Source: Promethearchaeota archaeon
GTDB taxonomy: Archaea; Asgardarchaeota; Lokiarchaeia; Sigyniarchaeales; SOKP01
Length of the DNA stretch: 64,000 nt
Reading direction: 5' to 3'
Assembly: GCA_019057795.1 (NCBI GenBank)
Contig: JAHLWS010000070.1
Coordinates: 1 to 64,000 of the forward strand
The notes beneath the pieces are model-generated. The model was given only the letters and a program-made list of their open reading frames with translations, did no database searches and was not told where the DNA came from. Both the position numbers and the translations under genes were made by a program. Position 1 is the first letter of the stretch; every line of letters begins with the position of its first letter. Below are positions 4,287-61,169 of this stretch, piece after piece.

Positions 4287-4323
4287 AGAGATAAATCTTT
4301 TTTCTTTTATTTTAAAAAATAAG

Positions 4324-4397
4324 CGGGCTATGAGGGAATCGAACCCCCGACCTGCCGGTTAAGAGCCGGATGCGCTACCTGCCTGCGCTAATAGCCC
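4324..4397 (-). tRNA. tRNA-Lys(CTT)
   Basis: Acceptor stem GGGCTAT/ATAGCCC, anticodon loop CT-CTT-AA, T arm GGGGG-TTCGATT-CCCTC. Confidence 0.95.
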
Positions 4398-26774: not shown

Positions 26775-27344
26775 ATGTCAGAGAAGGCTAAAAAAACCAA
26801 AATTAATTTTTCCTTTAAATGCCCAATTTGTAGCGAAGGAAAAATTGAAATCAGTAAGGTGATATATGATGTACCAGACGGAGATAAAATATTAATTATT
26901 AAATTTGAATGTAACATATGTAATTATTCCAATAATGATATAATCCCCTTAACAACTAATTTTACTCCAGGTATTATGAAATTAAAGGTTACGAATGAAG
27001 ACGACCTAAAATCTAAAATATATCGTTCCCCAGTAGGGTCATTAGAAATTCCAGAATTGGAATTAGTTGTTAACCCAGGTCCTAGAGCTGATTTTTATTT
27101 AACAAATGTTGAGGGTATTTTGTTTCGATTTGAAAACGCAGTTTCAATATATCGTAAAAACCTCGAAGAAGATGACGCTCAAATAGAAGAAATTGATAAA
27201 ATTTTACAAGACTTGGGAAAGGCAATAAACGGAGAATTTAAGTTCACTTTAATTATAACTGATACTGGAGGGGGAAGTTATATTATTCCTAACGATAAAT
27301 CAAAATATTCATTCGAAAAATTTGAGCCTAAAGAATTAAATTAA
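26775..27344 (+). CDS. ZPR1-related zinc finger protein
   Basis: CPIC...CNICNY, IPELEL...PG, TNVEG, D..G.SYI. Confidence 0.88.
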   Translation: MSEKAKKTKINFSFKCPICSEGKIEISKVIYDVPDGDKILIIKFECNICNYSNNDIIPLTTNFTPGIMKLKVTNEDDLKSKIYRSPVGSLEIPELELVVNPGPRADFYLTNVEGILFRFENAVSIYRKNLEEDDAQIEEIDKILQDLGKAINGEFKFTLIITDTGGGSYIIPNDKSKYSFEKFEPKELN

Positions 27345-27421
27345 AAATAATAAAGGAAATCATCATTATTTTTTAATAAGTATTAATGAAAAAAATAAAA
27401 TTATTAAAAATGTGAAATCAA

Positions 27422-28631
27422 ATGGTAATTAAAAAAGTTGGAATTTTAACGGGCGGCGGAGCCATGTTCAAGACTTTTCTTGACTGCCGTACACTGCCCC
27501 GGGTTAAATAGTGTAATTTATGGGATAATGTTAAAAGCCTACGATGCCGGTATAGAATGTGTTGGGATTCTTAAAGGTTGGAAAGGATTTGTGGAGAACT
27601 TAACTATCCCTCTAAATATCGCCGAACATGATGATTTACACACAGTTGGAGGTACAATATTATATACCAGTAGAACCAATCCTTTTAAAGGAGTTGATTC
27701 GAAAGAAGAAAAAGCAAAAGAATTAGCAAAGAAATTTGATGAATTAGGTATTGATGCACTTATCGCTATCGGTGGAGATTTAAAACGGTTTACATTTTAA
27801 ACCTAAAACGATACTTTAAGTGTTGCGGATGCTATGTGCAAATACTCAAAAGCGAATGTAATTGGCTGTCCAAAAACGATAGACAATGACTTGTTTGGGA
27901 CCCATTACACGTTCGGATTTTGGAGTTCGACGCAATTAGCTTCTAATGCAATGGACAATCTCACCACAACAGCTCGTTCGCATCAGCGGGTTTTTATAGT
28001 TGAAATAATGGGGAGAGATGCAGGATTTCTTACAATGTATAGTGGAATTTCTGCTGGTGCCGATATAATATTAATTCCTGAAACACCGTTTAGTTTAGAA
28101 AAGGATGTTATTGACGTGCTTAAAAAAAGAGTCAATGCAGGGTACAAATATCACATAATTGCCACCTCAGAAGGAGCTTATCCAAATTCAGAGTCGTTGA
28201 ACAAGGATTTTAAAACGATATCAAAAGAAACGATAGATAAATTACCTAAGGATACATACGGAAACCCGTTGCTTGTAAAATTGAATATATCCAAAATAAT
28301 TGTTGAAGAACTCAACTTAAGAGAAGATTTGAAAAAGGAATTTCAGAATAATGGTGTGGATTTTGAGTGTAGAAGCGTAGTCCTGGGCCACACAATGCGA
28401 GCAGGAACTCCTAATTGTTTTGATCGTATATTAGGATTAAGGTTTGGTTTAGCTGCAATGAAATTGGTTTTAAACAAAGACTTTGGTTATATGGTTTCGC
28501 TCCAAGGAACTAAAATAGAGAAGGTTCCCTTAGCTGAAGGTGTTAAAAAGAAGTATATAACATTTGATAATGATAAAATGGAATTACGAGACCTATTAGT
28601 GAAAATTAGATATTTATCGAAACAAAATTAA
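27422..28631 (+). CDS. pfkA: PfkA-family 6-phosphofructokinase (PPi-type signature), spliced: join(27422..27461,27493..27777,27808..28631), 382 aa
   Basis: Spliced product reads MVIKKVGILTGGG-D-CPGLN ... GGTILYTSR ... IGG-D-DTL ... PKTIDND ... EIMGRDAG ... LGHTMRAG. The two inserts fold as BHB or relaxed BHB. Confidence 0.88.
27462..27492 (+). other. BHB pre-mRNA intron 1 in pfk (31 nt)
   Basis: Central helix GCGG/CCGT, bulges AG|C and AC|A, inner stem CA/TG plus TCAAGA/TCTTGA. Removal restores GGA GAC TGC CCC GGG. Confidence 0.85.
27778..27807 (+). other. Relaxed BHB pre-mRNA intron 2 in pfk (30 nt, contains in-frame stops)
   Basis: Outer stem ATCG/CGAT, inner stem TTTAAAA/TTTTAAA, central GTGG/CCTA (2 of 4 paired), bulges AG|A and AA|A. 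Removal restores GGA GAC GAT ACT. Confidence 0.75.
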
Positions 28632-28678
28632 TTTCAGTGTTTTTTTTTATTTGTTGTATTTAAAAAAAGAAATTTAAA

Positions 28679-29917
28679 TTAACCGTAGTGTTTTTCTTCC
28701 TCGTGTTCAGCGTCAATTGCGTCTTGCTCTACATCGCGACCAAGCCATTTTTCGCTTAAAATTTCCTTGTAATACTCGTGTTGGATAATTAAATTCATTA
28801 TTTCTGTTGTGCCGGTCCAAATCTCTCCTAAACGGGCGTCCCTCATTAATCTTTCTATAGGATAGACGGTTGTGTATCCAATTCCACCCATGATTTGCAT
28901 CGATTTATTGATTACTTTCCAACACATTTTTGTTGAAAACTTTTTGGATTCAGAAACTAATCTTCTTTGGAGAGCGGGTGGCGCACCTGCATCTATTGTT
29001 TTCGCAGTGTTAAAGACAATTGCTCTTACTGCGTCTAAATATGTAATACAATCAGCGATCATGAAGTTAACAGCTTGAAAATTCTTAATTACTTGTCCAA
29101 ACGCTTTTCGTTTAGTGCTATATTTGGTAGCAATGTGTAGACAAGCACGTGCTAATCCAATAAAGCCAGAAGCTGTAGACAACCTCTCTGGAACCATCAT
29201 TTGATAGAATATTTTACCTCCCTTTCCCTCTCCCAGAATTAAATTTTCTTTTGGGATTTCTGCATCTTTAAAAATTATTCTACCCGCTCCGCCGCCTCTA
29301 GTACCTAACAAACCATATATATATGCTGCCTCTACTGCATCACTTTTATCAACAATAAATAAGCTTAAAGAATCACGAGGGGGGGCTTTAGGATTCGTTT
29401 TAGCGTAAACCAAAAAGAAATCAGCACCTTCAGCGCCAACAACGAATCGTTTTTCTCCATTTAATATATAGTAATCTCCTTCTTTTACAGCAGTAGATGT
29501 GGCTCCAAAAAAATCCGAACCTCCTCTTGGTTCAGTTAACGCTTCAGCAGTGAATTTCTTACCCTCACACATAGGCTTTAAATAATTTAACTTTTGGTCT
29601 TCTGTGCCAAATTTATTAAGCGCTTCCCCACATATACTCGGTAATGAAAATAAACAAGCTAGAGAACTTCCTAGTACGCCAACTTCTTCTTGGGCAATAA
29701 TTTCGCTTTCCCAATTTAATCCACGACCCCCATATTTCTTTGGAAACCTTATTCCAATCAAATTTTGTTTAGCTAATGCCTCCATCCACTCACTTGGATA
29801 TTGAATCTCGTCTTTATCCATTTGTTTTAATAATGAAGGTGGTACAGCATTTTTAACGAACTCTCGAACTTCTTCTCTAAATTTTTTATTTTCTTCGTTT
29901 AATAAATAATCATACAT
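28679..29917 (-). CDS. Acyl-CoA dehydrogenase
   Basis: [45 protein letters not shown]. Confidence 0.95.
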
Positions 29918-60494: not shown

Positions 60495-61169
60495 ATGCAT
60501 GGCATTGATAAAATAATTATTGAAACTAATGAAATTAGGCTTGAAGCCGAGTTTTTTCAGTTGAGTACAAATATTTCTCAGTCAGTTGTTTTAATTTGTC
60601 ACCCACATCCTCAATTTTTCTGGGTTTAAAGCCCTAAAAAGGGAAAATATGGGGGCAATCTGTATAACAATGTCGTATCTGGCGTTTTTAATATGTGCGT
60701 TCAAAATAAGATTTCATGTTTGCGGTTTAATTTCAGGGGAGTAGGAAGTTCGACTGGAAGTCATACTAGTGGAAATGGCGAGTTAAGCGATGTGAAAGCT
60801 TGTATTGATTTTTTAATAAACGAGAAAAACATTGAAAAAATAATAATCTGTGGTTATTCCTACGGCGCCGCTATCGGGTGTTCTGTTGTAAATTTTTCTG
60901 AGAAAATAATTGGCTATTGTGCGATTTCTTTTCCTTGGGATTTCATGGGCTCAAAATATAAGAAACTTTCTCAAACTAAAAAACCAAAATTGTTTATTCA
61001 AGGGAATCGAGATACTATTGCGCTCTATGAAAATTTTGAAAACCATTATAATTTCTATTTCGAACCAAAAAAATATAAGATTATTAATGGAGCTGACCAC
61101 TTTTACTCGGGATTTGAAGAAAATATCGCACAAGAAGTAAGCGAATTCTACAATTCGATTACAAAATAA
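60495..61169 (+). CDS. Alpha/beta hydrolase, spliced: join(60495..60613,60647..61169), 213 aa
   Basis: Spliced product reads VLICHPHPQ-YGGNLYNNVV, RFNFRGVG.S, GYSYG, QG.RD, GADHF. Confidence 0.88.
60614..60646 (+). other. BHB pre-mRNA intron (33 nt, contains in-frame TAA)
   Basis: Central helix TCCT/GGGA, bulges CA|A and AA|A, inner stem TTTTT/AAAAA plus GGGT/GCCC, outer stem CCCACA/TATGGG. Confidence 0.87.

What the first reader, a model, noticed from the sequence alone, without database searches (positions are those of the whole stretch)
27462..27492. pfk intron 1: full BHB inside the GGGD|CPG motif
The 31-nt insert CCATGTTCAAGACTTTTCTTGACTGCCGTAC splits the Asp codon (G|AC). Structure: central helix GCGG/CCGT, bulges AG|C and AC|A, inner hairpin TCAAGA/TCTTGA. 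Unspliced translation from ATG 27422 stops at TAG 27509 after 29 aa, so splicing would be required for a functional enzyme. The insert also contains GACTGCC (27482-27488), a copy of the spliced junction, which may hint at an origin by local duplication (inference).
Basis: partly seen in the sequence, partly recalled or inferred. Interest (0 to 1): 0.88.

Follow-up and report, generated by a model that had tools for sequence, protein, structure and literature searches.

The report
tRNA-type intron splits Asgard pfk
A 31-base insert shaped like an archaeal tRNA intron breaks the phosphofructokinase gene of a Loki-type Asgard archaeon inside a catalytic motif, so the message probably has to be cut and rejoined by the tRNA-splicing enzymes, a route so far documented for only one archaeal protein gene (cbf5).

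Summary
Window 27462-27492 is a 31-nt insert that splits the Asp codon of GGGD|CPG in a PFK-family gene. It sits in a full hBHBh' motif, and the boundaries set by protein homology fall exactly after the second nucleotide of each 3-nt bulge.

Among 64 distinct orthologues from Promethearchaeota (Loki-type) genomes, 15 carry an intron at this exact site and 49 have a seamless junction. In carriers the central helix is paired in 100% of cells, with compensatory changes. Two carriers have unrelated inner hairpins that still pair.

Carrier genes are under strong purifying selection (dN/dS 0.04-0.09). Their exon codons inside the BHB are nearly fixed (GGC GGC GGA G|AC), while non-carriers vary. The genome encodes two EndA-domain proteins and RtcB.

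No transcript evidence could be obtained, so splicing is inferred.

The same gene has a second 30-nt intron. My own scan recovered similar inserts in a hydrolase gene and in elf1 on this contig. Other readers of this scan had already flagged such introns elsewhere in this genome.

Closest precedent: the crenarchaeal cbf5 intron. Verdict: real, a new member of a known kind, high interest.

The parts
27422..27461 (+). pfk exon 1: 13 codons (MVIKKVGILTGGG) plus the first base of the Asp codon
   Evidence: Orthologues without the intron read straight through the same residues.
27462..27492 (+). intron 1, 31 nt, the finding
   Evidence: Absent at exactly these boundaries in 49 of 64 orthologues and present in 15. 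It is the only sequence of its kind in the genome. It shows up as a clean 31-nt indel against G005 and G002 in a motif-free alignment.
27456..27459 (+). BHB central helix, 5' strand (exon, GCGG)
   Evidence: Pairs with 27487-27490. Paired in 100% of cells in 14 distinct carriers, with one C-G to U-A double change.
27460..27462 (+). 5' bulge AG|C; predicted cut after 27461
   Evidence: The cut after the 2nd bulge nucleotide equals the exon boundary set by homology.
27463..27486 (+). intron inner helix and hairpin (C63-G86, A64-U85; 27468-73 with 27478-83; loop 27474-77)
   Evidence: The first two pairs are kept through double changes in L019 and L046, whose hairpins are otherwise different.
27487..27490 (+). 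BHB central helix, 3' strand (intron, CCGU)
27491..27493 (+). 3' bulge AC|A; predicted cut after 27492
27451..27455 (+). outer exon-exon helix, 5' strand (GGGCG)
   Evidence: Pairs with 27494 and 27496-27499. 98.6% of cells paired in carriers. 5 of 5 pairs in 14 of 15 carriers, against 3-4 of 5 in most non-carriers.
27494..27499 (+). outer exon-exon helix, 3' strand (C(U)GCCC)
27493..27777 (+). pfk exon 2 (AC of the Asp codon, then CPGLN...IGG plus the G of the next Asp codon)
   Evidence: PF00365 profile 11-101 and TIGR02483 profile 11-104.
27778..27807 (+). intron 2, 30 nt, relaxed BHB in GGD|DT (a separate finding in the same gene)
   Evidence: Present in 15 of 64 orthologues, independently of intron 1. 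Clean 30-nt indel against G002. Outer helix UAUCG/CGAUA and inner helix UUUAAAA/UUUUAAA set the BHB register, but only 2 of 4 central pairs form.
27808..28631 (+). pfk exon 3 up to the stop codon TAA 28629-28631
   Evidence: PF00365 profile 103-276 and TIGR02483 profile 105-323, directly continuing exon 2.

Best explanation
Window 27462-27492 is an archaeal bulge-helix-bulge (tRNA-endonuclease-type) intron inside the mRNA of a PFK-family phosphofructokinase of a Promethearchaeota (Loki-type Asgard) archaeon.

Proposed mechanism. The primary transcript folds so that exon 1 (GCGG) pairs with the 3' end of the intron (CCGU). This 4-bp helix is flanked by two 3-nt bulges and held by an intron hairpin and an exon-exon helix. 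The heteromeric splicing endonuclease (two EndA-domain genes in this genome) cuts after the second nucleotide of each bulge. RtcB then joins the exons and rebuilds the Asp codon G|AC. Together with removal of intron 2, this gives a 382-aa enzyme with intact GGGDCPG and GGDDT motifs.

Shown here: the structure, its conservation with covariation, the exact presence/absence polymorphism, selection on the exons, and the presence of the enzyme genes. Inferred: that cutting and ligation happen in the cell. Unknown: whether splicing is constitutive or used to regulate PFK.
For: (1) Geometry. There is a 4-bp central helix, two 3-nt bulges and both flanking helices, and the cut sites equal the homology-defined exon ends. 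This matches the BHB definition in PMC4090602 and PMC5829648.

(2) Polymorphism. 15 of 64 distinct orthologues carry an intron at this exact site and 49 are seamless.

(3) Structure conservation. The central helix is paired in 100% of cells, with a C-G to U-A double change and G.U to G-C changes. The first two inner pairs are kept by double changes. The covariation score is 0.172 against 0.134 for shuffles (0 of 500 reach it), and 87.6% of cells pair against 33-47% when the partner is slid. L046 and L019 have unrelated hairpins that still pair.

(4) The genes are alive. dN/dS among carriers is 0.04-0.09 with dS of 0.6 to over 2.

(5) Exon codons inside the BHB are nearly fixed in carriers: GGC 12/15, GGC 14/15, GGA 15/15, GAC 14/15. 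In non-carriers the same codons are found in 2/49, 8/49, 23/49 and 8/49.

(6) The common intron type is 83% identical between carriers, while third codon positions in the same pairs are 54% identical.

(7) Enzymes. Two EndA-domain ORFs of about 200 aa and one RtcB are present. Asgard EndA is reported as the (alpha-beta)2 type with the broad-specificity L1 loop (PMC5829648).

(8) An internal control: a 30-nt tRNA-Lys intron in the relative G005 has the same architecture and size (sequence).

(9) Other genes on this contig carry strict-BHB inserts of 32-33 nt at conserved motifs: a hydrolase and elf1.
Against: There is no RNA evidence: the metatranscriptome runs found do not cover pfk. The BHB is not the predicted minimum-energy fold (-13.9 against -19.7 kcal/mol), and the z-score of the region is unremarkable. 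One central pair is G.U, and the outer helix needs a bulged U. Relatives are not independent samples, so the carrier versus non-carrier codon contrast overstates its significance.
Confidence: 0.85

Rival explanations
1. The insert is a disabling insertion and this pfk is a pseudogene. The BHB-like fold is then incidental.
For: The unspliced gene cannot make PFK: the frame stops after 29 aa. No transcript data are available. A second, distant PFK paralogue exists on C12.
Against: dN/dS is 0.04-0.09 among 13 carrier lineages whose synonymous sites are saturated. All exons are intact in every carrier (no stops in any translated exon). The insert is kept at one exact site with compensatory pairing. 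The C12 paralogue is only 37% identical, so it is not a replacement of the same subfamily.
Confidence: 0.04
2. The insert stays in the mRNA and is passed over by the ribosome, either by translational bypassing as in T4 gene 60 or by a programmed frameshift.
For: The insert contains a hairpin just after a Gly codon, which superficially resembles the gene 60 gap.
Against: The required Asp codon has to be assembled from G27461 plus A27493 and C27494, which hopping cannot do. There is no matched take-off and landing codon pair that gives GGGDCPG. Carriers differ in insert length (31 or 32 nt), and L046 has UAG three codons after the junction, so no single recoding rule fits. A read-through with frameshift would insert about 11 residues in place of the invariant Asp.
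Confidence: 0.02
3. It is a real BHB intron, but one that works as a switch: the unspliced mRNA is the default off state, and splicing is regulated to set PFK levels. This is a variant of the main explanation, not a denial of it.
For: Both pfk introns sit in catalytic motifs, so an unspliced product is null. The intron sequence is more conserved than structure alone seems to need.
Against: Close relatives do without either intron, so any regulatory role is dispensable. Presence and absence are scattered on the tree: at least 5 changes are forced by well-supported branches, and 11 by parsimony on the exon 2 tree. This looks more like neutral or selfish turnover.
Confidence: 0.12
4. It is an assembly or sequencing artefact of this metagenome-assembled genome.
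For: The genome is a 87-contig assembly with 7.5% estimated contamination.
Against: Homologous inserts occur at the same site in 14 other independently assembled genomes from different studies.
Confidence: 0.01

Closest known systems
BHB intron in the cbf5 (pseudouridine synthase) pre-mRNA of Crenarchaeota (Watanabe et al. 2002; Yoshinari et al. 2006; Yokobori et al. 2009, PMC2738675)
   Same: [quoted passage not shown] Lineage-specific loss is seen among relatives.
   Different: A different phylum (Asgard/Promethearchaeota) and a different gene (a glycolytic enzyme rather than an RNA-modification enzyme). There are two introns in one gene. Presence and absence turn over among species of one genus, whereas cbf5 shows two losses across orders. 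Splicing of cbf5 was shown experimentally; here it is inferred.
Archaeal pre-tRNA BHB introns, including the abundant non-canonical ones of Asgard archaea (PMC11291895; preprint 10.64898/2026.10.13.758758)
   Same: The same motif, the same about 30-nt size class and the same hairpin-plus-central-helix build as a tRNA-Lys intron in the relative G005. The same enzymes are predicted to act.
   Different: The host RNA is an mRNA, so the exon halves of the helices must also encode protein. This shows up as fixed synonymous codons in carriers. Splicing also has to precede or compete with translation.
HAC1/XBP1 unconventional mRNA splicing in eukaryotes (IRE1 cleavage, ligation by tRNA ligase or RtcB)
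   Same: A non-spliceosomal, protein-catalysed excision of a short mRNA intron that changes the reading frame. In metazoa the exons are joined by RtcB.
   Different: The nuclease is IRE1 acting on two stem-loops, not EndA on a BHB. That system is a stress-regulated switch, and no regulation is shown here.

Membership tests
Archaeal BHB (splicing-endonuclease) intron | A 4-bp central helix flanked by two 3-nt bulges on opposite strands | tested here: met
   27456-59 pairs with 27487-90, including one G.U pair. Bulges are 27460-62 and 27491-93. Definition taken from PMC4090602 and PMC5829648.
Archaeal BHB (splicing-endonuclease) intron | Flanking helices h and h' (strict hBHBh' form) | tested here: met
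   Outer helix G55-C94 plus C54-G96 to G51-C99. Inner helix C63-G86 and A64-U85 plus a 6-bp hairpin. 96-99% of cells paired across carriers.
Archaeal BHB (splicing-endonuclease) intron | Cleavage after the 2nd nucleotide of each bulge yields the functional exon junction | tested here: met
   The predicted cuts at 27461/62 and 27492/93 are the only boundaries that restore GGGDCPG. They match the seamless junction of 49 orthologues.
Archaeal BHB (splicing-endonuclease) intron | The structure is kept in evolution by compensatory change | tested here: met
   6 pairs show changes on both sides, and no shuffle reaches the observed covariation score. Intron variants with different hairpins still pair.
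Archaeal BHB (splicing-endonuclease) intron | The host encodes the splicing endonuclease and an RtcB-type ligase | tested here: met
   PF01974 hits at C69:74212-74436 and C74:72339-72587. PF01139 hit at C70:112485-113792.
Archaeal BHB (splicing-endonuclease) intron | The intron is excised and the exons ligated in RNA | tested here: inconclusive
   The public RNA runs found hold no contig over 27449-28518. No spliced-junction sequence from a relative was found in metagenome contigs.
Phosphofructokinase family (PF00365; TIGR02483 PFK_mixed) | A full-length match to the family profile once the inserts are removed | tested here: met
   Exon 2 covers TIGR02483 positions 11-104 and exon 3 covers 105-323 with no gap. 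PF00365 is matched at E 3e-22 and 3e-53. The motifs GGDDT and PKTIDND suggest PPi dependence by the textbook Asp104/Lys124 rule; this is my inference and was not tested.
Self-splicing group I/II intron or other known RNA family | A match to a ribozyme or Rfam model | tested here: not met
   There are no Rfam matches above chance in 27200-28000. 31 nt is far too short for a ribozyme.
Translational bypass element (T4 gene 60 type) | Matched take-off and landing codons that give the conserved protein | tested here: not met
   The Asp codon is split 1+2 across the insert. No landing site gives GGGDCPG. Insert variants differ in length and in stop codons.

The most novel reading that the evidence does not exclude
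mRNA splicing by the tRNA endonuclease and RtcB is routine in this Loki-type Asgard genus. On this reading, dozens of protein-coding genes carry about 30-nt BHB introns that are gained, lost and moved between species by recombination. I checked pfk (two introns), elf1 and a hydrolase on this one contig; other readers of this scan flagged more. That would make this genus a prokaryote with a turning-over population of protein-gene introns, in the lineage closest to eukaryotes, and many 'split' or 'pseudo' genes in Asgard genome assemblies would be annotation errors.
Probability: 0.5. Interest if true: 0.92.

Novelty: new member of a known kind. Interest (0 to 1): 0.8.

Why it matters
In the papers I could search, endonuclease-spliced introns in archaeal protein genes are documented only for cbf5 in Crenarchaeota. 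I found no report for Asgard archaea, where only tRNA introns have been described.

If the intron is real, it has four consequences:
- A central glycolytic enzyme in a close relative of the eukaryotic ancestor depends on mRNA splicing.
- The tRNA-intron machinery of Asgard archaea reaches mRNAs. This raises the question of how splicing is ordered relative to translation in a cell without a nucleus.
- It offers a natural system of intron gain and loss with closely related intron-plus and intron-minus alleles.
- Gene callers mis-annotate such genes as fragments, which would bias metabolic reconstructions of Asgard genome assemblies. Here, PFK would be scored as broken or absent.

Tried and rejected
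**Transcript evidence.** The look-up of sequencing runs gave three metatranscriptome runs with small word shares. Laying X1, X2, X3 and X6 showed RNA contigs only at 28572-28632 and 29801-29852, and no joints. This says nothing either way about splicing.

**Spliced junction in metagenome contigs.** A search for the 21-mer spanning the spliced junction gave 31 hits, all from GC-rich (42-68% GC) unrelated organisms whose PFK happens to use the same codons. None was Asgard-like.

**Genome-wide census by BHB pattern plus ORF merging**.
- Under lax criteria, real and mirror-image geometries give equal counts (for example 314 against 302), because neighbouring genes on one strand are merged by chance.
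- Only with a constrained-fold energy of -8 kcal/mol or lower and a length of 28-34 nt is there about a two-fold excess (43 against 21).
- pfk intron 1 itself is missed, because exon 1 is short, exon 2 is cut short by intron 2, and the outer helix has a bulge.
- I therefore give no genome-wide number.

**Other copies of the introns.** No other copies of intron 1 or intron 2 exist in the genome, so it is not a repeated mobile element.

**Rfam.** No family matched.

**Clustering of carriers on a tree.** The whole-gene tree does not cluster carriers. A tree of exon 2 alone clusters them only weakly: 11 changes against 13.6 for shuffles.

**Origin by local duplication (GACTGCC).** This is not supported by the divergent introns.

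**The hppA note from the earlier scan.** My PF03030 search found one uninterrupted 738-aa frame, so I did not rely on that note.

Full report
**What is there.** The + strand of window 27422-28631 encodes a PFK-family protein in three pieces.
- Exon 1 (27422-27461) reads MVIKKVGILTGGG plus one G.
- A 31-nt insert follows (27462-27492).
- Exon 2 starts with AC TGC CCC GGG.
- Removing exactly these 31 nt rebuilds GGA G|AC TGC, which reads GGGDCPG.
- Left in place, the frame ends at TAG 27509-27511 after 29 aa.
- A second insert of 30 nt (27778-27807 in the BHB register) with in-frame TAA codons splits GGD|DT.
- After both removals the product is 382 aa, the length of the uninterrupted orthologues (382-386 aa open frames).
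- Exon 2 and exon 3 match TIGR02483 positions 11-104 and 105-323, and PF00365 positions 11-101 and 103-276, so nothing is missing or extra.

**The structure.**
- Central helix: G27456.U27490, C57-G89, G58-C88, G59-C87.
- Bulges: AG|C (27460-62) and AC|A (27491-93).
- Inner helix: C63-G86 and A64-U85, then a 6-bp hairpin (27468-73 with 27478-83).
- Outer exon-exon helix: G55-C94 plus C54-G96 to G51-C99.

This is the arrangement described for pre-tRNA: the 5' strand of the central helix belongs to the exon, and each bulge holds two nucleotides before the cut and one after it (PMC4090602; PMC5829648). The boundaries required by the protein are exactly these cut sites, and no other boundary gives the same protein.

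Thermodynamics alone is not persuasive. The BHB scores -13.9 kcal/mol against -19.7 for the unconstrained fold, and the z-score is -1.08.

**Who the organism is.** Relatives found with exon 3 are Promethearchaeota (Lokiarchaeota) genome assemblies such as Loki_b31, Loki_b32 and ABR04. The genome is 4.95 Mb with 31% GC. It encodes two EndA-domain ORFs of about 200 aa and one RtcB. This fits the (alpha-beta)2 endonuclease with the L1 loop reported for Asgard archaea (PMC5829648).

**Comparative test.** I collected 64 distinct orthologues of this PFK clade from the genus and its neighbours.
- 15 carry an intron at exactly this site.
- 49 read GGN GGN GGN GAY TGY CCN without interruption.
- 13 carriers have the same intron type. 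Two others (L019, 32 nt; L046, 31 nt) have different inner sequences that still form the helices; L046 has a perfect 9-bp stem.

On the alignment of carriers the BHB structure is paired in 87.6% of cells, against 33-47% when partners are slid. The central helix is paired in 100% of cells and includes a C-G to U-A double change. Six pairs show double changes, and no shuffle reaches the observed covariation score.

**The gene is alive.**
- dN/dS between carriers is 0.04-0.09, while dS is 0.6 to over 2.
- Type-A introns are 83% identical on average, while third codon positions of the same gene pairs are 54% identical. The intron itself is therefore constrained, or has spread recently.
- The exon parts of the BHB are constrained only when the intron is present. 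Carriers use GGC (12/15), GGC (14/15), GGA (15/15) and GAC (14/15). Non-carriers use the same codons in 2/49, 8/49, 23/49 and 8/49.
- The outer helix has 5 of 5 pairs in 14 of 15 carriers but in only 5 of 49 non-carriers.
- Relatives are not independent samples, so I treat this as descriptive, but the carriers are scattered over the tree.

**Turnover.**
- On the protein tree the two introns are scattered. The window's gene (both introns) is sister to an intron-free gene (SH-aLRT support 98). L019 (intron 1) is sister to intron-free L048. L040 (both introns) is sister to L038 (intron 2 only).
- On a tree of exon 2 alone, intron 1 still needs 11 changes, at least 5 of them forced by well-supported branches.
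- The gene is a recombination mosaic. Against G005 the flanks are 93-96% identical, 27450-27749 falls to 61-77%, and later segments alternate between about 80% and about 94%.
- The nearest neighbour of the window's gene changes from segment to segment.
- L007 lacks intron 1 but keeps the carrier-type exon context GGGCGGCGGAG|AT, as expected after a recent precise loss.
- I infer both precise losses and transfer of intron-bearing tracts by homologous recombination. Their relative shares are not resolved.

**Context in this genome.**
- A motif-free alignment of the whole 64-kb window against G005 and G002 found the two pfk introns as the only indels of 15 nt or more in coding sequence. It also found a 30-nt intron in the tRNA-Lys gene of G005 that the window's copy lacks.
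- By hand, that tRNA intron has UUCG/CGAA as central helix, bulges AU|A and AG|U, and an 8-bp hairpin. This is the same build and size as the pfk introns.
- My BHB-plus-ORF scan was too noisy for a census. Its best hits did include a 33-nt insert in a hydrolase gene (window 60614-60646, HPHPQ|YGGN) and a 32-nt insert in elf1 (C70:101393-101424, splitting CPN|CG of the zinc ribbon).
- Pfam places the downstream pieces at profile positions 20-27 onward and 28 onward, so the upstream pieces are needed to complete the domains.
- Other readers of this scan had flagged these and further cases in the same genome. I treat the ones I did not test as leads. One of them (hppA) did not fit my own search.

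**What is not shown.** No RNA data cover the gene, and no spliced junction from a relative was found in metagenome contigs. Splicing, its efficiency and any regulation are inferred.

**Alternatives.**
- A pseudogene is contradicted by the selection data.
- Ribosomal bypassing or frameshifting cannot assemble the split Asp codon, and does not fit the length and stop-codon differences between intron variants.
- An artefact is excluded by 14 independent assemblies.
- No Rfam family matches, and the intron is single-copy in the genome.

**Comparison with what is known.** The closest precedent is the cbf5 pre-mRNA intron of Crenarchaeota (PMC2738675 and the references). Searches of the held literature found abundant Asgard tRNA introns (PMC11291895; preprint 10.64898/2026.10.13.758758) but no Asgard protein-gene BHB intron. 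Subscription journals are mostly outside that library, so an earlier report cannot be excluded.

**Verdict.** It is a new member of a known kind. Interest is high because of the lineage, the metabolic target, the two introns in one gene, the fast turnover, and the signs that the phenomenon extends to other genes.

Noticed in passing
window 27778-27807: A second pfk intron of 30 nt splits GGD|DT at the same GGAG^AC context. The BHB register is set by perfect outer (UAUCG/CGAUA) and inner (UUUAAAA/UUUUAAA) helices, but only 2 of 4 central pairs form. It is present in 15 of 64 orthologues in two sequence types, independently of intron 1.
   Followed up: partly
window 60614-60646: A 33-nt strict-BHB insert sits in an alpha/beta-hydrolase gene (HPHPQ|YGGN). 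My scan recovered it with a constrained fold of -18.2 kcal/mol. The downstream piece starts at about position 20-27 of the Pfam hydrolase profiles. G002 appears to carry it too, since there is no indel in the alignment.
   Followed up: partly
G000:C70:101393-101424 (L170:194-225), outside the window: A 32-nt strict-BHB insert sits in elf1 and splits the first zinc-ribbon CxxC (KIFTCPN|CGEK). The downstream piece begins at position 28 of 79 of PF05129.
   Followed up: partly
window 4323-4397 (-), compared with G005 (L136): The tRNA-Lys(CTT) gene of the relative G005 carries a 30-nt canonical BHB intron in the T-loop region that the window's copy lacks. It has the same size and build as the pfk introns.
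   Followed up: partly
window 27450-29400: pfk and the 5' part of the neighbouring acyl-CoA dehydrogenase gene form a mosaic of about 94% and about 78% identity tracts against G005, whose flanks are 93-96% identical. This points to frequent recombination between species at this locus.
   Followed up: partly
G000:C78:170202-170232 (L171): A 31-nt strict-BHB candidate (-19.2 kcal/mol) lies near the 3' end of an SBF-family transporter gene. Pfam covers only the upstream piece, so it is not verified.
   Followed up: partly
Standard tRNA finders may be missing interrupted genes here.
   Followed up: no
loci L055, L058, L068, L070, L071, L075, L079: Genome assemblies titled Odinarchaeota, Hodarchaeota, Hermodarchaeota or Thorarchaeota (JBHL* series) have pfk genes 82-89% identical to this Promethearchaeota genus and fall inside it on the tree. 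Their record titles are probably mislabelled.
   Followed up: no
G000:C56:31605-33584 (L172): The H+-pyrophosphatase gene found with PF03030 is one uninterrupted 738-aa frame.
   Followed up: partly
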